From positions 1-35,937 of IMG/VR virus record IMGVR_UViG_2778261229_000003: a stretch of DNA of 35,937 nt. One strand, written 5' to 3'. Source of the DNA: a virus (taxonomy: Duplodnaviria; Heunggongvirae; Uroviricota; Caudoviricetes). A model generated the notes under the pieces. It was not told the origin of the DNA and ran no database searches. It was given only the letters and a program-made list of their open reading frames with translations. Positions 2,168 to 8,541 of the stretch are shown piece by piece. Each line of letters begins with the position of its first letter. Positions within the stretch are counted from its first letter, which is position 1. The position numbers and the translations under genes were made by a program.

Positions 2168-2679
2168 GCCGCGTTTCCTTCTTTCTTATTAACAATTACA
2201 CCGTCATATATTTCATTAAGGTGCCCTCTCAACTCCATGCGCCTTAATGCAGATAACATGTAATCGCATTCAACCTGCTTATTTCCAGTAAATGGCTTAT
2301 CGTCAGGATTACCCCAACAGCAATTACCCTTGGGCCACCCATGTACTTTCCGTACTCTTCCGTTAACAACGTGAAGTAATCCCCAGCCAGGTGGTAAATC
2401 CTCAATTGAAATAATTCCCGGCTCACTAATAAAGAATCGCCAGTCGCCCATTCCAAGAGACGGATTTTTACGGAAACGCTTTTTTCTATCTGCCAACAAG
2501 TCAGCACGAGAACACTTCGCCTCTATCAAGCATGATGCTGAACTTCTGAATCCCATAGCATCTGGCTGTTCTCCGGTGCTGGTTACAGCTATAAAGCGGT
2601 CATGAAAGCAAACCTTGAACCCGTTGCGCTTAAGGAACTTGTACGCAATCTGACAGAGTTCGCGGTGTGTTAACGCCAT
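2164..2679 (-). CDS. PD-(D/E)XK-type nuclease-like protein
   Basis: Start refined to ATG 2679 (MALTHRELCQ) preceded by AAGGAG; motif GEQPDAMGF ... CLIEAKCSRADL matches D...ExK nuclease core. Confidence 0.5.
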   Translation of the reverse strand: MALTHRELCQIAYKFLKRNGFKVCFHDRFIAVTSTGEQPDAMGFRSSASCLIEAKCSRADLLADRKKRFRKNPSLGMGDWRFFISEPGIISIEDLPPGWGLLHVVNGRVRKVHGWPKGNCCWGNPDDKPFTGNKQVECDYMLSALRRMELRGHLNEIYDGVIVNKKEGNAA

Positions 2680-2680
2680 C

Positions 2681-2875
2681 TCACTCTCCTTTAGTGCGCA
2701 GATAACAGTGGTTTTTCCAGCGGTTTTGCGCCGCGCTGGGCTTTTTGCAAAAACCACAATCCATCATCCCGTAATGTTTCATTAACCCCACCCGTCGGTT
2801 GCTGAGTCTCACCCACTGCCAGACGCCAGGAGCGTTTCTGCGAACTAACAGAATCTTTGCTTTACGGTTTTTCAT
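2681..2875 (-). CDS. Small hypothetical protein (64 aa)
   Basis: ORF with AGGAG 9 nt upstream of ATG; ATGA overlap with upstream orf58 and stop 1 nt before nuclease start (translational coupling). Confidence 0.3.
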   Translation of the reverse strand: MKNRKAKILLVRRNAPGVWQWVRLSNRRVGLMKHYGMMDCGFCKKPSAAQNRWKNHCYLRTKGE

Positions 2876-3048
2876 CGTTTTGCTCTCCTGCGTTTCTTTG
2901 CTGCTCGTCGTGCCGATGCAATACCGGTATGGCGGCGCTTTGGTGCCGGGATGATGTTGTCAGCCATCAGGACATGTGGCTTTGCAATTAGCGCAGAAGC
3001 CCAAAAACGAGTCGGGTACGGTAACAAGCCGATACATGCCACACGCAT
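2872..3048 (-). CDS. Small basic hypothetical protein (58 aa)
   Basis: Hand-translated ORF MRVACIGLLPYPTRFW...RRAAKKRRRAKR; ATG overlaps the TAA of the Ea22-like gene (TAATG); below the 60-aa track cutoff. Confidence 0.3.
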   Translation of the reverse strand: MRVACIGLLPYPTRFWASALIAKPHVLMADNIIPAPKRRHTGIASARRAAKKRRRAKR

Positions 3049-3743
3049 TACTCACCTCCTTTGATGCGAATGCCAGCGGCGCGGGAATCATTCCATCGCT
3101 TTACTTCTTCACGAATTACGTCAATGCATTCTTTCGAATCCATTAGGTAATCTTCATCAAAAAGACGTTCCTGTTCGTTTTCTATCGCAACAATGATTGC
3201 TTCAACTAACTTTTGTGCCTGAGAACCACTTTCTAACTCTGCAATGCGCTTCTCTGCGGCTTCCAGCTTCTCGCGCATATCGTCAACGTACTCGACCAGA
3301 GATCCGCCAGCAGGAATTTCGCACTCCTCGACCAGTTGGAAGTAGATATCAGCTGCGGCCCGTGTGTTGCTATGCCTAGCGTCGCCCATCTCACCTTCAC
3401 GAAGAGCATCGCGTTCGGCGGTAAGATTGGCTATTTTGCTGTCTTTGCCTTCCAGCTCAACGCGCAGCCTCCCTACCGTTAGCGCAATATCCTCGTTCTC
3501 CTGGTCGCGGCGTTTGATGTATTGCAGGTTTCTTTCCCGTTCATCCAGTAGTGCCAAAGCAATCTTGGGATTAAAGGCAGCAATAAATTCAGCGTTGTTT
3601 TTCAGAACGTGTTGCGCAATGGCCTGACTACTTAGCCGGACTTCATAACCACGTGCGCCACGGTGTGGTTTATATGAGTCCCAGTCACCCCACGTTGCTT
3701 TCTCTGCCGCCTCACGCAGTGCCTGATAGTCAATCTTGCTCAC
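3048..3743 (-). CDS. Ead/Ea22-like family protein
   Basis: 231-aa ORF with N-terminus [21 protein letters not shown] typical of lambdoid Ead/Ea22-like proteins; acidic coiled-coil rich. Confidence 0.5.
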   Translation of the reverse strand: MSKIDYQALREAAEKATWGDWDSYKPHRGARGYEVRLSSQAIAQHVLKNNAEFIAAFNPKIALALLDERERNLQYIKRRDQENEDIALTVGRLRVELEGKDSKIANLTAERDALREGEMGDARHSNTRAAADIYFQLVEECEIPAGGSLVEYVDDMREKLEAAEKRIAELESGSQAQKLVEAIIVAIENEQERLFDEDYLMDSKECIDVIREEVKRWNDSRAAGIRIKGGE

Positions 3744-4381
3744 TGGTTGCCTCCTTTGCGAAGCTGTTCAGCAATACTTACGCATATCTCTGCGCCTCTA
3801 ATCAGCCCCGGAACGTTCTTGTTTGGCCCAACTTCACCATCAACAAAATCAATCATCGCGTTACGAGCCATATCTACGCCCTGCGCCCGGACTTCAGCCA
3901 GGCATTTGCGAAACTCGGAAACGTACTGTTCGACGCTCATTCCCCAGCTAAGTGGACATTCATTGAATGTTTCGCCTTCGTGCTCTTCATCAGGTAGCTC
4001 TTTGGTAAAGAACTCACGCTCAATGGCGTGGAGTGTGTCAGCAAAACGACGTAAGTTACTCAAACCTGTCGTAATGGAGAATTCAAGAGCATCACATCCG
4101 ACGACCATCTGCTGGTAAACTGCTGTTTTGAAGGCCTTCAGTCTCGCATTCTCCGCAGCCAGCGCTGAAAACTTCTCGTGTGCCAACTTAACAGCCGCAT
4201 CAGCCTGCTTAATTGACTCAATCGCTCTCTGGTGGTCTTCGTACAGAGCCGAAATCTTGGCCTCCGCTTCAGCAAATTTACGCACCAGATATTCAGCGTT
4301 TGTTTCGTTAACCTTTAAATCTCGTGGGATGCATTTACCTTTCAGAAAACCATCCATCTCAATTAGTGACATTTGTTTCAT
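3740..4381 (-). CDS. Hypothetical coiled-coil protein (ea region)
   Basis: Track ORF 3740-4399; likely start ATG 4381 (MKQMSL) with GGAG 9 nt upstream; ATGA overlap with downstream Ea22-like gene. Confidence 0.45.
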
Positions 4382-4542
4382 TTCTTCCCACTCCGCCACA
4401 TCGCATTCAGATATTTGTTTTGATTTACTGACGGAAAAGAATTTCTCTTAAGCAATTCCTCTCTCGATGGCATTGGCTTTACGCGTTGGCGAATAATCAT
4501 TTCTGCCGGAAGAATGCCGTGATTGTATGCAAGTCCTCTCAT
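4378..4542 (-). CDS. Small hypothetical protein (54 aa)
   Basis: Hand-translated ORF bridging two genes, ATG overlaps stop of upstream gene (ATGA); weak evidence only. Confidence 0.2.
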
Positions 4543-4829
4543 GATTTACTCTCCACGAACTGGTCAATAGCCATGCTAAGTGACACACCTAAAGTCTCGA
4601 TATGCTGCTGAATATCCTGTAGCGTCTGCGCCTGAGATAACAGGATTTCACGGTTGCATAACTCTTTGACCAGATGCTCAAACTTGCTGTAATAACCGAT
4701 ACGGCTTAGTGTTTCTTTCCCTGCATTCTCGCCTTCTTTGATAATTCCTCTTTCACTAAGAATCAGGTCGTGTTTGGTTCCGGTAATAACGTATTTTCCG
4801 AGGTCGATGTTTAGCTTCATTGTTTTCAT
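4539..4829 (-). CDS. Hypothetical protein (96 aa)
   Basis: Track ORF 4539-4982; start refined to ATG 4829 ([10 protein letters not shown]) with GAGGA 7 nt upstream. Confidence 0.45.
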
Positions 4830-4839
4830 TGTTAATTCC

Positions 4840-5136
4840 TCAGTCATTACTGATAGCGCCATAGCGTGAGCGGTAATTACGCAGGCGCGGGTCGATATAT
4901 TCAGGGAAGTGGGTATATGTGGCTTTGCGGAATGGTCGGATTGATGTCTGGTAAATTCGCTCGCGTTCTTCTTTCTCTGCAAGCCATATACAATGGCGAA
5001 ATTCCTTTTCCTCTTTCGTTTCCTGCGGTAGCGACATTATCCGATCGTAGTTTTTTCTGAATTTATCCAGCACCTCCGATACGGAATTGCCGGAACAGCG
5101 GCGCGGGTCATCCGCACCATACAGAGGCGCTGGCAT
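4840..5136 (-). CDS. Hypothetical protein (98 aa)
   Basis: ORF with AGGAG RBS 7 nt upstream of ATG 5136; no recognisable motif. Confidence 0.45.
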   Translation of the reverse strand: MPAPLYGADDPRRCSGNSVSEVLDKFRKNYDRIMSLPQETKEEKEFRHCIWLAEKEERERIYQTSIRPFRKATYTHFPEYIDPRLRNYRSRYGAISND

Positions 5137-5152: not shown

Positions 5153-5701
5153 TTATTTAGCTAACTTTTTCCAGATCGCTGAAACGTATTTGGCTTGGTG
5201 AATGGCATCATCAAGAGCGTTGTGGCGAGTTCCTTTGAATGGCATATCTCGCTTAGGGTCGAATCCTATTACCTTTCCAAGCTCGACGATTGTTCTTACG
5301 TCGCGGTCATTCCACCACTGCCATGGAACTGGCTGCCCTGTCAGCGAATAACTGTTTCGGAGAATAACGCAGTCAAATGATGCTCCATTCCCCCAAACCT
5401 GAACGAATTTGTGGTTAGCGTTCTTTATGATGAATTCAGATAACCATGAAAGAGCCGTTGAAAGCTCCTGAATGTTGCTGGTTAGCGATTTTCTGGCTTC
5501 TTCACTCTGTTCCAGCCACCATAAAATCGTTGAAGCGTCAGGACGCGCCCGATATCGCATTGATGACTCAAGCGAGATATTTACCGAGAACTCTTCTCCT
5601 GTTTCTCCGGTATTCGGGTCAAAGAATACCGCCCCAATAGAAATAACTGGCGCGTATGGCCCGTTGCCCATTGTTTCAAGGTCAACCATCAAGTGATTCA
5701 T
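5153..5701 (-). CDS. DnaQ-like (DEDDh) 3'-5' exonuclease
   Basis: 182-aa ORF with exonuclease motifs MVDLETMG (Exo I) and HNALDDAIHQAKY (Exo III); AAGGA RBS; sits with SSB and annealase. Confidence 0.7.
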   Translation of the reverse strand: MNHLMVDLETMGNGPYAPVISIGAVFFDPNTGETGEEFSVNISLESSMRYRARPDASTILWWLEQSEEARKSLTSNIQELSTALSWLSEFIIKNANHKFVQVWGNGASFDCVILRNSYSLTGQPVPWQWWNDRDVRTIVELGKVIGFDPKRDMPFKGTRHNALDDAIHQAKYVSAIWKKLAK

Positions 5702-5709
5702 GTAAGTCC

Positions 5710-6216
5710 TTAAATTGCGTGAATAGCGTGACGAGGGAAGGGGAGAGTTACTGGTGCAAAGGGTATATCGTCGTCAAAATCCATAGGTGGTTCGTTGTGT
5801 TGTGCTGGTGATGATTGCTGCTGTGGCTTCTGTGATTGCCTGCTGGCTGCTTGTTGTTTGCTGTCGCCAATGCCGCCAAGCATTTGCATCACGCCATTAA
5901 TTCCGACATGAACCTCGGTTGTGTAACGGTCTTGTCCTGACTGGTCTTTCCACTTTCTGGTTCTCAGCATTCCCTCGAAATAAATCTGATCACCTTTTTT
6001 CACATACTGCCCCACGACCTCAGCCAGTTTCCCGGATACAGCAACACGATGCCATTCAGTCAATTCCTTTTGCTCGCCAGTATTTTTATCTCGCCATTGT
6101 TCTGACGTGGCTATTGTCAGGTTAGCGAACGCTGTTCCTGATGGTGAGTATCGAACTTCCGGGTCTTGTCCTACCCGACCAAGGATAATCACCTTATTTA
6201 CGCCTCTGCTTGCCAT
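5710..6216 (-). CDS. ssb: Single-stranded DNA-binding protein with C-terminal extension
   Basis: OB-fold N-terminus [18 protein letters not shown]..., Gln/Pro-rich linker and acidic tip DFDDDIPF, but ORF continues 15 codons ([15 protein letters not shown]) past the canonical terminal Phe. Confidence 0.85.
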
Positions 6217-6924
6217 TTATGCCGCCTGTTTTAGTTCGTTAACTCTGATGTTCATTACCTGAACGCATTTAGCCTGCGCCTCCTCGTTGCCAGCCATTAA
6301 TTGCCAGTCACGCTGATAACGCTCGATGAGTTTTTTCTTGTCAGTTTCTGTTGATGCATAATCGCTGAAGTCTTTCAGGATTTGTTCGCAGTCAACCGAT
6401 GGAGATTTCTGGTTGGTATTTTCTGGTGATGGTTTGTTATCTGATGCTGGGATTGCCCATCCCGGCAGCGTTGGAGGGAGCCAGTAAAACCCTGTTCCAT
6501 CCTTCAGTTTTGCCCTGTGCCACCCCTGTTTTTTATCGAGAGATGTTTGTGCGAAACCTTCCTCAAGGTTATACAGATACCGACCGATTCCCCACTGAAC
6601 GGCAGCGCGCTTCATTGCACCGGAACGACCACCTTTGACGGCTTCTACCTGCGTGTTTTCAGCAGCATCCCATTTGGTTACCCATTCGGAATCAATCTTT
6701 ATTGATATGCCGCATTCAACGCCGCCGTTGTTGGGAATATCGCGGTATTCATTGCGCCATCCTGCTTTGCCGCAAACATCGTCCAGGCGTTTCATGATTG
6801 CCCGGTTCGTTACATAAGCCAGCACCATAGCCCACACTTTGCCATCGCGTGTTTTACCGCTTTGCTGTATTCGCCATTCGATATCTTCAGGGCTGAATGG
6901 CTCATCGAATTTATTCAAATCCAT
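6217..6924 (-). CDS. Rad52/22-family single-strand annealing protein
   Basis: 235-aa ORF with Rad52-type motifs including AMKRAAVQWGIGRYLY; GAGGTG RBS; adjacent to ssb and exonuclease. Confidence 0.7.
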   Translation of the reverse strand: MDLNKFDEPFSPEDIEWRIQQSGKTRDGKVWAMVLAYVTNRAIMKRLDDVCGKAGWRNEYRDIPNNGGVECGISIKIDSEWVTKWDAAENTQVEAVKGGRSGAMKRAAVQWGIGRYLYNLEEGFAQTSLDKKQGWHRAKLKDGTGFYWLPPTLPGWAIPASDNKPSPENTNQKSPSVDCEQILKDFSDYASTETDKKKLIERYQRDWQLMAGNEEAQAKCVQVMNIRVNELKQAA

Positions 6925-7471: not shown

Positions 7472-8440
7472 TTAGTAGGTTATTTTTGTTGCGAATACTT
7501 CGCCTTTTACGATGGCTGTTATGATATTTTTAGCAACATCTTCTGATGCGCCAACCTTGATAAGGTCAGCAAGTATTTTGTTATTTACTTCTTTCCGGTG
7601 AGCTTTATCCTTTGCTCTACGCTCTTCTTCGTCCTTGATTCTTTTTTCTTCTGCTATTCTGGCTTGCTCTTTTGCTTCAGCCTCGCGCCGGATTCGTTCT
7701 GCCTCCTCCTGTGCTTTACGGCGTTCTGCTTCAATTGCCGCATGCTTTTCTCTTTCAGTTCGTTCTGCTGCCTCTTTTGCTTCGCGCTGTGCTCGTTGCT
7801 CGGCTTCAATGCGTTCACGCTCTGCACGTTCCGCTGCGGCCTTAGCTTCTGCTTCTCGCCTTGCTGCTGCTTCAATTTCGGCTTTTGCCTTTGCTTCGGC
7901 TTCTGCTCTGGCTTTCTCTTCAGCTTCTCTTTTTAAGCGTTCTTCATGCTCTCGCTTTTCCTGCTCCGCTTTGAGTCTTTCCTCTTCTCTTTGGCGGTCA
8001 AATTCGCGATCCATCAAAATCGCTATTTCATGGTCAGACTCAATTTGCTTTGCGAGAGCTTCAGCTGCTGCCTTAGCTTCTTCTTCGGCTTTAATCCGCG
8101 CCTGTTCTTCCTCATAATCAGTAAGAGGCTGGCGCGCCTTGGCTTTCAGTTCATCAAGGCGATCGCGCACTGTCTTGCGGTTGGCATCAATTAGCTTTGG
8201 AATTTCCTTAAGTTCAGCAACAAGGTCTTTGCCAAGACCATCGAGATATGTTTTCGTCTGCGCAACTTTATACGCCAGAGAAGCGATCTCCTTTCTGCCC
8301 TTTGCCGTTGTGATATCAGGCACAAAGGACATAACTTCACGTTCAACCTTTTGAAGGATTTCTTCAATCTGGTCGGCAGACTGAAATACAGTCATTGCAT
8401 TTGCTTTTTCAATAACAACTAAATCTGTTACTTCACTCAT
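7472..8440 (-). CDS. ER/K-rich charged-repeat protein (predicted single alpha-helix / coiled coil), unknown function
   Basis: Track ORF 7472-8494; start refined to ATG 8440 (MSEVTDLV) with GGAGG RBS; central ~170 aa of A/E/K/R repeats (EAEAKAKAEIEAAARREAEAK...). Confidence 0.6.
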   Translation of the reverse strand: MSEVTDLVVIEKANAMTVFQSADQIEEILQKVEREVMSFVPDITTAKGRKEIASLAYKVAQTKTYLDGLGKDLVAELKEIPKLIDANRKTVRDRLDELKAKARQPLTDYEEEQARIKAEEEAKAAAEALAKQIESDHEIAILMDREFDRQREEERLKAEQEKREHEERLKREAEEKARAEAEAKAKAEIEAAARREAEAKAAAERAERERIEAEQRAQREAKEAAERTEREKHAAIEAERRKAQEEAERIRREAEAKEQARIAEEKRIKDEEERRAKDKAHRKEVNNKILADLIKVGASEDVAKNIITAIVKGEVFATKITY

Positions 8441-8452
8441 ATATCCTCCGTT

Positions 8453-8479
8453 AAAAAAATCGCCCTCACATTGGAGGGC
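8453..8479 (-). terminator. tL1-like rho-independent terminator (minus strand)
   Basis: Minus-strand hairpin GCCCTC-CAATGT-GAGGGC followed by GATTTTTTT, immediately upstream of the RBS of the ER/K-rich gene. Confidence 0.5.
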
Positions 8480-8541
8480 AAAGAAGATTTCCAATAATCA
8501 GAACAAGTCGGCTCCTGTTTAGTTACGAGCGACATTGCTCC

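What the first reader, a model, noticed from the sequence alone, without database searches (positions are those of the whole stretch)
5710..5760. Phage SSB with a 15-residue extension beyond the canonical DDDIPF tip
Bacterial SSBs end in an acidic tip DFDDDIPF whose free C-terminal Phe docks partner proteins. This ORF contains MDFDDDIPF but reads through 15 more codons ([15 protein letters not shown]) before the stop at 5710. An internally buried tip would alter or abolish host-partner binding, possibly to favour the phage annealase/exonuclease or to act as a dominant competitor; a recent stop-codon loss is also possible.
Basis: seen in the sequence. Interest (0 to 1): 0.45.

Follow-up and report, generated by a model that had tools for sequence, protein, structure and literature searches.

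The report
Phage SSB with a capped tip
This phage's single-stranded-DNA-binding protein carries a conserved 15-residue tail after the "DDDIPF" tip that normally must be the free end of the protein; such capped tips prove common in phage SSBs and appear undescribed in the papers searched.

Summary
Window 5710-6216 (- strand) encodes a 168-aa bacterial-type SSB that ends ...[26 protein letters not shown].

It is not a sequencing error, a recent stop-codon loss or random read-through.
- The identical protein is in phages mEp235, mEpX2 and HK75.
- 111 of the 120 closest protein clusters carry a tail of exactly 15 residues, in 28 distinct variants.
- Substitutions are conservative (F/Y, I/V/L, H/Y). 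Tail pN/pS is 0.34-0.55. The now-internal tip has pN/pS 0.03.

Capping is general. About 30% of a 120-locus sample of FDDDIPF-encoding viral contigs read on past the Phe. Tail families follow host lineage: 15 aa in Enterobacterales, 14 aa in Vibrio/Alteromonadales, 9 or 11 aa in Pseudomonas, and one-residue caps.

In Sf6, Huey, IME10 and N7, an endonuclease gene related to I-KsaII sits exactly between the Phe codon and the tail. There the SSB ends at a free IPF and the endonuclease takes the tail as its own C-terminus.

Function is inferred, not shown. The tail most likely stops the tip docking into host partner pockets that anchor the terminal carboxylate, and may add a new short motif. I found no paper describing this. 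Interest is moderate to high; it is a new variant of a known kind.

The parts
5710..6216 (-). SSB gene, 168 codons plus TAA
   Evidence: ORF list; Pfam PF00436 E 1.6e-36; PHROG 44 'single strand DNA binding protein' E 1.6e-66; PDB E. coli SSB 1eqq E 6.6e-58 over residues 1-153.
5878..6216 (-). OB-fold DNA-binding/tetramerisation domain (aa 1-113)
   Evidence: AF2 model mc976d75744ef: strands E8-113 with block pLDDT about 80-89. pN/pS 0.23.
5791..5877 (-). Gln/Pro-rich intrinsically disordered linker (aa 114-142)
   Evidence: pLDDT below 50 from residue 114 onward. pN/pS 0.52, and the alignment is gappy here.
5758..5790 (-). Acidic SSB-Ct tip [11 protein letters not shown] (aa 143-153), here internal
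   Evidence: Read directly from the sequence. pN/pS 0.03 with pS 0.64. Nearly invariant in 111 tail-bearing clusters.
5713..5757 (-). 15-residue C-terminal cap [15 protein letters not shown] (aa 154-168)
   Evidence: 111/120 clusters have exactly 15 aa, with P2 and L5 invariant and F7, P8, R9, H10 and I15 near-invariant. pN/pS 0.34-0.55. Predicted disordered. No counterpart in any solved SSB structure.
5710..5712 (-). TAA stop; also a mosaic boundary
   Evidence: Homology with HK75, Huey, ECP1 and CP-1639 ends exactly at query position 551, which is window 5710. Downstream of that point those phages carry abc2 rather than the exonuclease.
5757..5758 (.). Empty insertion site of the mobile endonuclease gene, between the Phe codon and the Ala codon
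   Evidence: In Sf6, CurroJimenez and Huey, 441-447 nt lie between the TTY Phe codon and the CCA of the tail. The insert comprises a stop, an RBS and an ORF running to ..IYPDE[E/A]. IME10 and N7 show the same two-piece match. L025, L032 and L117 keep the Ala (PDE-APVTL). Other rearrangement breakpoints fall at the same point (L119, L467).
6217..6924 (-). Rad52/22-family single-strand annealing protein (annotated 'Erf-like'), immediately upstream with its stop abutting the SSB ATG
   Evidence: Pfam PF04098 E 5e-26; PHROG 1097 E 7.6e-130.
5153..5701 (-). Rv2179c-like 3'-5' exonuclease, 8 nt downstream of the SSB stop
   Evidence: Pfam PF16473 E 1e-72. Absent from HK75, ECP1 and CP-1639, which still have the tail.
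4840..5136 (-). Abc2 anti-RecBCD protein
   Evidence: Pfam PF11043 E 4.3e-62.

Best explanation
The 15 codons are a genuine, selected part of the gene. They form a disordered short linear motif that caps the SSB-Ct tip, so the Phe that normally ends bacterial SSBs becomes internal. Shown: the cap is conserved in length and pattern across enterobacterial prophage SSBs. Related or analogous caps (14, 9-11 or 1 residue) occur on phage SSBs of many Proteobacteria. The tip beneath the cap remains under very strong purifying selection. The capped gene is the ancestral 'empty site' of a mobile endonuclease gene. That gene inserts exactly at the tip|cap junction, gives the SSB a free IPF end, and takes the cap as its own C-terminus. 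Inferred mechanism: host SSB-interacting proteins (ExoI, RecQ, RecG, PriA, chi, DnaG, RecO and others) anchor the alpha-carboxyl of the terminal Phe. The cap should therefore weaken or prevent their docking. Phage SSB would then coat recombination and replication ssDNA without recruiting host nucleases and helicases, and at high dose could compete with host SSB. The acidic tip would stay available for carboxylate-independent uses, such as intramolecular OB-fold regulation or contact with the phage annealase. The lineage-specific tail sequence may add a new docking surface. The cap modulates rather than being essential, because sibling phages with the endonuclease make an uncapped SSB.
For: Reality and conservation: (111/120 clusters with exactly 15 aa; 28 variants; conservative substitutions). 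Selection, over 63 coding sequences: tail pN/pS 0.34, tip 0.03, OB 0.23, linker 0.52. Pattern-unbiased species-level sets: 0.55, 0.39 and 0.43 for the 15-, 14- and 9-aa families, with synonymous sites near saturation (pS 0.66-0.84). Generality: 109 species-level loci with FDDDIPF[AS]P, from Enterobacterales to Pseudomonas, Vibrio, Pasteurellaceae and beta- and alpha-proteobacteria. 36 of a 120-locus sample of FDDDIPF viral loci are extended. One-residue caps exist. 13-15 of 78 tip-bearing representatives are capped. Disorder/SLiM. Direction of the endonuclease event: 559 phage homologues of Sf6 gp26 align only to about residues 1-141 and never to the tail. PHROG 2340 covers 1-143 of 159. Some copies keep the Ala of the SSB tail. 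Biochemical premise: the 'basic lip' anchors the alpha-carboxyl and is among the most important contacts (PMC10164576; PMC5872125). SSB-C-terminal-GFP fails to bind ExoI and behaves as a dominant negative from a plasmid (PMC7293020). The tail class follows host lineage rather than neighbouring gene family: YqaJ, ERF, Sak4-like, RecT, Rad52 and Gp157 neighbours all occur.
Against: No binding, stability or genetic experiment exists for any capped SSB, so the mechanistic step is inference. The very strong conservation of the internal tip shows it still does something. It could still bind some partners, so 'abolished' may be too strong. Long tails have conserved sequence beyond what mere capping needs, which argues for an added specific function. 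Capped and uncapped viral SSBs sit in similar recombination modules, so context gives no support for a special role. AF2 gives no docking hint. Phages with the endonuclease make an uncapped SSB and are viable, so any benefit is modest or conditional.
Confidence: 0.5

Rival explanations
1. Gain-of-function docking motif. The tail's main role is to recruit one specific partner, a host factor or a phage protein. Loss of the free Phe carboxylate is incidental.
For: Tails longer than one residue have position-specific conservation. In the 15-aa family these are P2, L5, F/Y7, P8, H10, I12 and I15. In the 14-aa family they are G4, L5, Q6, P8, L10 and L11. In the 9-aa family they are H4, L6, G8 and A9. 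The tail is predicted disordered, like a SLiM. Tail class follows host taxon, as expected if a host protein is the target. PVTLPF loosely resembles the clamp-binding hexamer QLxLx[LF] (own knowledge). Phage annealases are known to read SSB C-termini (HK620 Sak4/SSB, PMC5928155).
Against: One-residue caps (DDDIPF-N and similar; 42 of 120) cannot be docking motifs, yet they share the capping feature. The tails lack the Gln of clamp motifs, and the Pseudomonas and Pasteurellaceae tails do not fit that pattern. No single neighbouring gene family co-occurs with the tail. The endonuclease carries the same tail in Sf6-type phages, with no obvious need for the same partner.
Confidence: 0.2
2. Processing or turnover signal. 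Either the tail is cleaved off to expose IPF-COOH (a 'pro-SSB'), or it is a C-terminal degron that keeps the phage SSB short-lived.
For: The tip stays under extreme purifying selection (pN/pS 0.03), as expected if it is eventually used as a free end. Most tails end in small or hydrophobic residues (..HAI..LAGA..NCM..NII). These recall the ClpX C-terminal signals LAA and MuA ..KAI (own knowledge).
Against: No protease site or protease gene is associated with the tail. The tails are heterogeneous: the alpha-proteobacterial APEVR and the one-residue N, S, R and K caps do not look like degrons. A phage could encode a free tip directly, as the endonuclease-bearing alleles do. Nothing here could be tested with the tools available.
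Confidence: 0.12
3. Nucleotide-level element. The 45 bp are conserved as DNA or RNA, and the amino-acid sequence is a by-product. Candidates are an endonuclease target or recombination boundary, or an RNA structure coupling translation of the downstream gene.
For: In the E. coli/Salmonella phage set, synonymous divergence in the tail (pS 0.26) is far lower than in the rest of the gene (about 0.6). Tail DNA is 44/45 identical between SSB bodies that are only 75% identical. Mosaic boundaries and rearrangement breakpoints fall at both ends of the tail. The CU-rich tract could pair with the downstream Shine-Dalgarno sequence.
Against: Across species the tail DNA is near saturation at synonymous sites (pS 0.66-0.84), yet the residue pattern and exact length persist. 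RNA folds of the tail plus downstream RBS in four contexts are no more stable than shuffles (z 0.01 to 1.31). The low pS in coliphages is explained well enough by recent recombination or co-conversion next to the homing site.
Confidence: 0.05
4. Non-functional read-through: a sequencing error, a recent stop-codon loss, or a scar left when the downstream endonuclease gene was deleted.
For: The same 14 residues end the Sf6-type endonuclease, so a deletion could in principle fuse them to the SSB. A decayed endonuclease gene exists in phiKp_30.
Against: The same reading is found in independently sequenced phages and in 411 E. coli genomes. 111/120 clusters have exactly 15 aa, with 28 variants. pN/pS is below 1. 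Homologous tails occur in genera where no such endonuclease was seen. The endonuclease family elsewhere lacks the tail.
Confidence: 0.03

Closest known systems
E. coli SSB and its SSB-Ct interaction hub
   Same: Same fold and architecture: an OB domain (PDB 1eqq, E 6.6e-58), a disordered Gln/Pro-rich linker, and an identical [10 protein letters not shown] tip sequence.
   Different: In E. coli SSB the Phe is the last residue and its alpha-carboxyl is a key contact for partners (PMC10164576). Here 15 conserved residues follow it.
Engineered SSB with GFP appended to the C-terminus (Dubiel et al. 2020, PMC7293020)
   Same: The tip is followed by extra polypeptide. That construct fails to bind ExoI, needs a wild-type ssb copy, and looks dominant-negative from a plasmid. 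It is the nearest experimental model for what a cap may do.
   Different: It is artificial and carries a large folded domain. The natural cap is a short disordered peptide shaped by selection, and its effect on binding has not been measured.
HK620 SSB / Sak4 pair (Hutinet et al. 2018, PMC5928155)
   Same: An SSB in the recombination module of a P22-like phage, whose C-terminal residues mediate functional coupling to the cognate annealase.
   Different: HK620 SSB is a distant SSB homologue that ends in a terminal NDYPPF, so it is uncapped. Its annealase is Sak4, not Rad52-like.
Sf6 genes 27 and 26 (SSB plus endonuclease)
   Same: The same locus in a sibling phage. The gp26 C-terminus [15 protein letters not shown] corresponds to the window's tail. 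The GenBank note already records '14 contiguous amino acids identical to ... E. coli SSB protein'.
   Different: In Sf6 the SSB ends at a free ..DDSDIPF, and the tail belongs to the inserted endonuclease. The window holds the uninterrupted allele.
Free-standing homing endonuclease genes (I-KsaII of Staphylococcus phages; T4 seg/mob genes)
   Same: Present or absent between near-identical genomes (Huey vs HK75, 98-99% nt). Inserted at a highly conserved coding sequence. Homologous to I-KsaII (about 35% identity, E 1e-20). A decayed copy exists in phiKp_30.
   Different: It is not in an intron or intein. It splits off the last 15 codons of the target gene and reads into them in frame, so homing changes the C-terminus of the host protein. 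Cleavage activity and target have not been tested.
T7 gp2.5 (own knowledge: Marintcheva et al. 2006)
   Same: A phage ssDNA-binding protein with an acidic C-terminal tail whose terminal Phe is needed for partner binding.
   Different: A different fold family, and its Phe must be terminal. It is not capped.

Membership tests
Bacterial-type homotetrameric SSB (Pfam PF00436) | N-terminal OB-fold ssDNA-binding domain | tested here: met
   PF00436 E 1.6e-36, residues 6-104. PDB SSBs match at E 2e-59 to 6.6e-58. The AF2 OB fold has pLDDT about 87.
Bacterial-type homotetrameric SSB (Pfam PF00436) | Intrinsically disordered Gly/Gln/Pro-rich linker | tested here: met
   Residues 114-142 are Q/P/S-rich. 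pLDDT is below 50. The region is gappy and fast-evolving, with pN/pS 0.52.
Bacterial-type homotetrameric SSB (Pfam PF00436) | Acidic SSB-Ct motif D-F-D-D-D-I-P-F | tested here: met
   [11 protein letters not shown] at aa 143-153; pN/pS 0.03.
Bacterial-type homotetrameric SSB (Pfam PF00436) | The Phe of the SSB-Ct is the C-terminal residue, with a free alpha-carboxyl for partner docking | tested here: not met
   Fifteen residues follow Phe153. The premise comes from PMC10164576 and PMC5872125.
Bacterial-type homotetrameric SSB (Pfam PF00436) | Tetramer formation and ssDNA binding | not testable with these tools
   Inferred only from 60-70% identity to E. coli SSB in the OB domain.
Free-standing homing endonuclease gene, with the window as its empty site | Presence/absence polymorphism at one precise site between otherwise near-identical genomes | tested here: met
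   The Huey SSB is 98.2% identical to the window in two pieces, with 441 nt inserted. HK75 and mEp235 are uninterrupted. Of the first 120 tail-bearing viral contigs, 22 carry the insert.
Free-standing homing endonuclease gene, with the window as its empty site | The insert encodes an endonuclease of a known homing family | tested here: inconclusive
   No Pfam hit at E <= 0.01 and no PDB sequence hit. PHROG 2340 'endonuclease' matches at E 2.6e-47. tblastn finds homologues annotated I-KsaII and 'PacI-like HNH'. An HH..CxxC..H motif is visible by eye.
Free-standing homing endonuclease gene, with the window as its empty site | The enzyme cleaves the insert-free allele near the insertion point and is copied in by repair | not testable with these tools
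   Indirect only. Other rearrangement breakpoints fall at the same junction (L119, L467). The 3' flank is homogenised.
Beta-clamp-binding motif (QL[SD]LF / QLxLx[LF]) | Conserved Gln at position 1 followed by the hydrophobic pattern | tested here: not met
   The tail has P-V-T-L-P-F with Pro invariant at that position. The Pseudomonas, Pasteurellaceae and alpha-proteobacterial tails do not fit.
ClpX-type C-terminal degron (ssrA-like ..LAA or MuA-like basic ..KAI) | A terminal tripeptide or basic patch matching a known recognition class | tested here: inconclusive
   ..RHAIHAI and ..HHLAGA resemble these only loosely. ..NCM..APEVR and the one-residue caps do not. No degradation data are available.

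The most novel reading that the evidence does not exclude
Capping the SSB-Ct is a widespread strategy of temperate phages. By hiding the terminal carboxylate, the phage makes an 'insulating' SSB. This SSB coats its recombination and replication ssDNA, and may poison host SSB tetramers, without engaging the host SSB interactome. Lineage-specific tails create new private docking sites. A family of homing endonucleases has specialised on the tip|cap junction, so homing toggles the phage SSB between capped and uncapped states.
Probability: 0.35. Interest if true: 0.8.

Novelty: new variant of a known kind. Interest (0 to 1): 0.62.

Why it matters
The terminal Phe and its free carboxylate are treated as the universal handle by which bacterial SSB organises more than a dozen genome-maintenance enzymes. 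That pocket is also being pursued as an antibiotic target.

A large natural class of phage SSBs keeps the handle but buries it. It makes up roughly a third of a 120-locus sample of FDDDIPF-bearing viral SSB genes, and occurs in prophages in about 8% of complete E. coli genomes. This would give a ready-made natural experiment on which SSB functions need a free end.

It could explain how phages keep host nucleases off annealing intermediates, and it may matter for choosing SSB partners in recombineering systems.

The endonuclease that inserts precisely at the junction is a clean case of a mobile gene that changes the C-terminus of its target protein and borrows the displaced peptide.

Databases currently label these genes simply 'ssb', so the feature is invisible to annotation-based work.

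Tried and rejected
1. Sequencing error or recent stop loss: rejected by the survey.

2. Scar of an endonuclease deletion: rejected. The endonuclease family elsewhere lacks the tail, and some copies retain the SSB-type Ala.

3. RNA structure or RBS sequestration in the tail region: folds of four contexts are no better than shuffles (z 0.01-1.31).

4. Frameshift producing a canonical end: the -1 frame has no stop for at least 25 codons, and the +1 frame gives IPF-HQ*. There is no slippery heptamer in the correct register (by eye).

5. Tail docking onto the OB fold: the AF2 monomer shows residues 114-168 at pLDDT below 50, with no contact.

No complex prediction was possible.

7. Link between capping and a particular annealase or exonuclease: neighbours are diverse. 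A capped versus uncapped comparison showed no difference (19 vs about 22 loci; ERF, Rad52 and AAA_24 in both). The samples are small.

8. Retron-Eco8 sensing of the phage SSB tail: the T7 C-tail is dispensable for activation, so this is not relevant.

9. Literature searches found no description of capped tips. I searched for 'IPFAP', for SSB with prophage, C-terminal extension and DDDIPF, and for phage-encoded SSB with C-terminal tail. The Sf6 genome paper (Casjens et al. 2004) was not sought by title and did not turn up in these searches.

10. Pfam and PDB classification of the endonuclease: no significant hits.

Full report
OBSERVATION. The window is a P22-like E. coli phage or prophage; its closest relatives are CUS-3, Kapi1, HF4s and Sf6. 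Its early-left region lies on the minus strand. It encodes a Rad52/22-family annealase (6217-6924), an SSB (5710-6216), an Rv2179c-like 3'-5' exonuclease (5153-5701) and Abc2 (4840-5136). The SSB is 168 aa. Residues 143-153 are [11 protein letters not shown], with the Phe codon at 5760-5758. They are followed by [15 protein letters not shown] (5757-5713) and TAA (5712-5710).

NOT AN ARTEFACT. The identical protein is annotated in phages mEp235 and HK75, and mEpX2 matches at 98.7% nt. Epsilon34 and g341c are 90% identical in DNA and have the same tail. ECP1 and CP-1639 have SSB bodies only about 75% identical in DNA, yet also read [18 protein letters not shown].

I searched 5.8 billion proteins. 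Of the 120 best 90%-identity clusters, 111 carry a tail of exactly 15 residues, in 28 distinct versions. They come from Escherichia, Salmonella, Klebsiella, Citrobacter, Enterobacter, Kluyvera, Phytobacter and Pluralibacter. P2 and L5 are invariant. F/Y7, P8, R9, H10 and I/L15 are nearly so. The substitutions are conservative: A/S, V/I, T/A, I/V, H/Y and A/V. This SSB 3' end is present in 411 of 5426 complete E. coli genomes, where PGAP simply calls it 'ssb'.

SELECTION. Pooled Nei-Gojobori proportions on 63 unique coding sequences are shown below.

| Region | pN/pS |
|---|---|
| OB fold | 0.23 |
| Linker | 0.52 |
| Tip | 0.03 |
| Tail | 0.34 |

That set was partly chosen by a tail pattern, so I repeated the calculation on species-level loci found with a pattern that fixes only FDDDIPF[AS]P.

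| Tail family | pN/pS |
|---|---|
| 15 aa | 0.55 |
| 14 aa | 0.39 |
| 9 aa | 0.43 |

In these sets synonymous sites are near saturation (pS 0.66-0.84), so the values overestimate dN/dS. Tail length is constant within each family despite this divergence. The tail is therefore maintained at the protein level, and the tip beneath it is among the most constrained parts of the gene.

In the coliphage/Salmonella-phage subset, the tail DNA is unusually uniform (pS 0.26, against about 0.6 elsewhere). I attribute this to recent recombination next to a homing site (see below). An RNA element is unlikely, because folds of the tail plus downstream RBS in four contexts are no more stable than shuffled controls.

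A MOBILE ENDONUCLEASE USES THE JUNCTION. In Sf6, CurroJimenez_Bas106 and Huey, and in 22 of the first 120 tail-bearing IMG/VR contigs, the SSB ends at a free ..DD(S)DIPF or ..DDEIPF. IME10 and N7 give the same two-piece match as Sf6. A 155-159-aa endonuclease gene follows, and its last residues are ..HKHNKPIYPDE[E/A][14 protein letters not shown].

The insert between the Phe codon and the CCA Pro codon is 441, 446 or 447 nt. It consists of a stop for the SSB, an RBS, and the ORF, which always reads into the tail in the tail's frame. There are two lineages. They are 52% identical overall: 29% in the first ~87 residues and 83% in the last 64.

The direction of the event is clear for three reasons.
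- 559 phage records hold homologues of Sf6 gp26, including I-KsaII of Staphylococcus phages. They align to residues ~1-141 and never to the tail.
- PHROG 2340 covers residues 1-143 of 159.
- Three copies keep the SSB-type Ala (PDE-APVTL..).

So the capped SSB is the ancestral, empty site, and the endonuclease captured the displaced 15 codons. Other features fit a homing-endonuclease life cycle.
- phiKp_30 holds a decayed copy, and its now non-coding tail has drifted.
- Two unrelated rearrangements break at the same TTT|GCA junction (L119, L467).
- Several homologues in other phages also lie next to SSB genes.
- ES18 has a different HNH gene at the SSB 3' end.

Cleavage itself was not testable. 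The Sf6 GenBank note already records the 14-residue identity between gene 26 and 'E. coli SSB', so that coincidence had been seen but not explained.

CAPPING IS GENERAL. A scan of one genome per species for FDDDIPF[AS]P found 109 loci.
- Enterobacterales, including Proteus, Providencia, Xenorhabdus and Tatumella: 15-aa tails with consensus AP[IV][GT]L[PQ][FY]P.H.I[HY].[IL]. Sodalis has 16.
- Vibrio, Pseudoalteromonas, Idiomarina and Rheinheimera: 14-aa tails (APIGLQYPALLNCM-like), sharing the first eight positions with the enteric family. Colwellia has a related 15-aa tail.
- Pasteurellaceae: 15 aa.
- Pseudomonas: about 45 loci with 9 aa (APLHHLAGA-like), or 11 aa (APISRLLLNII).
- Beta-proteobacteria: 11-15 aa.
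- Alpha-proteobacteria: 5-6 aa (APEVR-like).

Allowing other first residues revealed more members of the Pseudomonas family, of the form x-[PRQ]-h-[HP]-[HY]-L-[AS]-G-[AI]. It also revealed many one-residue caps, DDDIPF-N/S/R/K/I.

In a 120-row sample of viral contigs encoding FDDDIPF with no constraint on the next codon (the first rows returned), 84 stop directly and 36 (30%) continue, mostly for 5-15 codons. Among the best 150 representatives from a 1.84-billion-protein library, 64 end at the tip and 13-15 are capped.

The capped genes lie in prophage recombination and replication modules of many types. Neighbours include YqaJ, ERF, Sak4-like AAA_24, RecT, Rad52, Gp157, RdgC and integrase. 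Uncapped viral SSBs have similar neighbours. Tail class therefore tracks host lineage or SSB lineage, not a particular phage partner.

STRUCTURE. AF2, run with a 41-sequence alignment, gives a confident OB fold. Residues 114-168 have pLDDT below 50 and show no intramolecular docking. No solved SSB structure extends beyond the tip. The tail behaves as a disordered short linear motif.

MECHANISM (inferred). SSB-interacting proteins share three features: a hydrophobic pocket for the Phe side chain, a basic ridge for the Asp residues, and a 'basic lip' that anchors the alpha-carboxyl of the terminal Phe. The last is described as one of the most important contacts (PMC10164576; PMC5872125). SSB with GFP appended to the C-terminus does not bind ExoI, requires a second wild-type ssb, and could not be introduced on a plasmid, consistent with dominant negativity (PMC7293020).

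The simplest property shared by all natural caps, including the one-residue ones, is that they remove this carboxylate from the Phe. I therefore favour the view that the cap weakens or prevents docking of host partners. Phage SSB-coated ssDNA would then not be handed to ExoI, RecJ, RecQ and the like. This fits the theme of the operon, which also encodes Abc2 against RecBCD.

The extreme conservation of the internal tip shows that it is still used. Possible uses are OB-fold autoregulation or contact with the annealase. Phage annealases do read SSB tails: in HK620, Sak4 needs the last six residues of its SSB (PMC5928155). The position-specific conservation of the long tails suggests an added, lineage-specific interaction.

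The cap is not essential, because endonuclease-bearing siblings make an uncapped SSB. None of these functional steps has been tested.

RIVALS. There are four.
- A pure gain-of-function docking motif (0.2). The clamp-motif version fails its defining Gln.
- A cleavable pro-peptide or a degron (0.12).
- A nucleotide-level element (0.05).
- Non-functional read-through or a deletion scar (0.03).

The report sections give the evidence for and against each.

NOVELTY. The gene and its homologues are in databases as ordinary 'ssb'. Full-text searches of the held library (PubMed Central open-access papers and bioRxiv) found no description of SSBs with residues after the tip, no occurrence of the motif string, and no discussion in the epsilon34, HK620-Sak4, Orf-family or ETfinder papers. 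I rate it a new variant of a known kind: a bacterial-type SSB that fails one defining feature, the terminal Phe, in a conserved and widespread way.

Noticed in passing
L004 (Sf6) 2528-3007; L005 (Huey) 2022-2489; L466 2058-2554: The endonuclease inserted at the SSB tip|tail junction has no Pfam hit and no PDB sequence hit. It is related to I-KsaII and to genes annotated as 'PacI-like HNH'. In the E. coli chromosome locus L466 the ORF is intact, but PGAP leaves the 497-nt stretch unannotated.
   Followed up: partly
L009 (Klebsiella phage phiKp_30) 2016-2219: A decayed copy of the endonuclease gene. Only the first ~11 codons and the last ~20 remain, around a GC-rich palindromic filler. The now non-coding tail has drifted to ..RHAAYAI.
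   Followed up: partly
L119 (about 1326 on the reverse-complement strand); L467 2501-2553: Two unrelated rearrangements have their breakpoint at the same TTT|GCA junction. One is a different upstream sequence. The other is a truncated acyltransferase in a scrambled prophage. This suggests a recombination or cleavage hot spot.
   Followed up: partly
L151 (Rheinheimera MAG) 5191-6726: A tandem duplication. The SSB 3' end (tip plus 14-aa tail) and the following 129-aa lipoprotein-like gene occur twice, 548 nt apart. The second SSB fragment is only 55 codons.
   Followed up: partly
L010 (ES18) 2054-2575; viral loci of alignment A3: An unrelated HNH gene, similar to T7 gene 7.7, follows the ES18 SSB stop directly. 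Four ORFs among the neighbours of about 22 uncapped viral SSB loci have an HNH_3 domain within 2 kb. The SSB 3' end seems to be a general landing site for endonuclease genes.
   Followed up: no
viral loci L243-L359: Many phage SSBs end DDDIPF-N (32 loci), or -S, -R, -K or -I. These are one-residue caps, which cannot be docking motifs but do move the terminal carboxylate off the Phe.
   Followed up: partly
tails in L131-L239 and P0001-P0120: His and Cys recur in otherwise different tail families. Enterics have H10 and H/Y13. Pseudomonas has HH. Pasteurellaceae have HH.H. Vibrio-type tails have ..[HN]C[MIV] at the end. The enteric tail also repeats a hydrophobic-Pro-Phe triplet (IPF...LPF). Both are unexplained; metal binding or a pseudo-tip are possibilities.
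   Followed up: no
window 7472-8494 (- strand): A 340-aa ORF with a long, highly charged Glu/Ala/Lys/Arg-rich repetitive middle (EAEAKAKAEIEAAARREAEAK...). It has no Pfam family. Related phages list a 'TolA protein' among the features under the 25-kb match, but it was not mapped to this ORF.
   Followed up: no
window 3740-4399 and 4539-4982 (- strand): A 219-aa ORF has only a sub-threshold Pfam match. A 147-aa ORF has a weak DUF5405 match and overlaps the abc2 3' end in another frame. Their status as genes was not checked.
   Followed up: no
window 6217-6924 (- strand): The annealase is annotated 'Erf-like' in phage records and PHROGs, but it matches Pfam Rad52_Rad22, not ERF. The epsilon34 paper says only the C-terminal 56 aa resemble P22 Erf, a domain swap (PMC2629481).
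   Followed up: no
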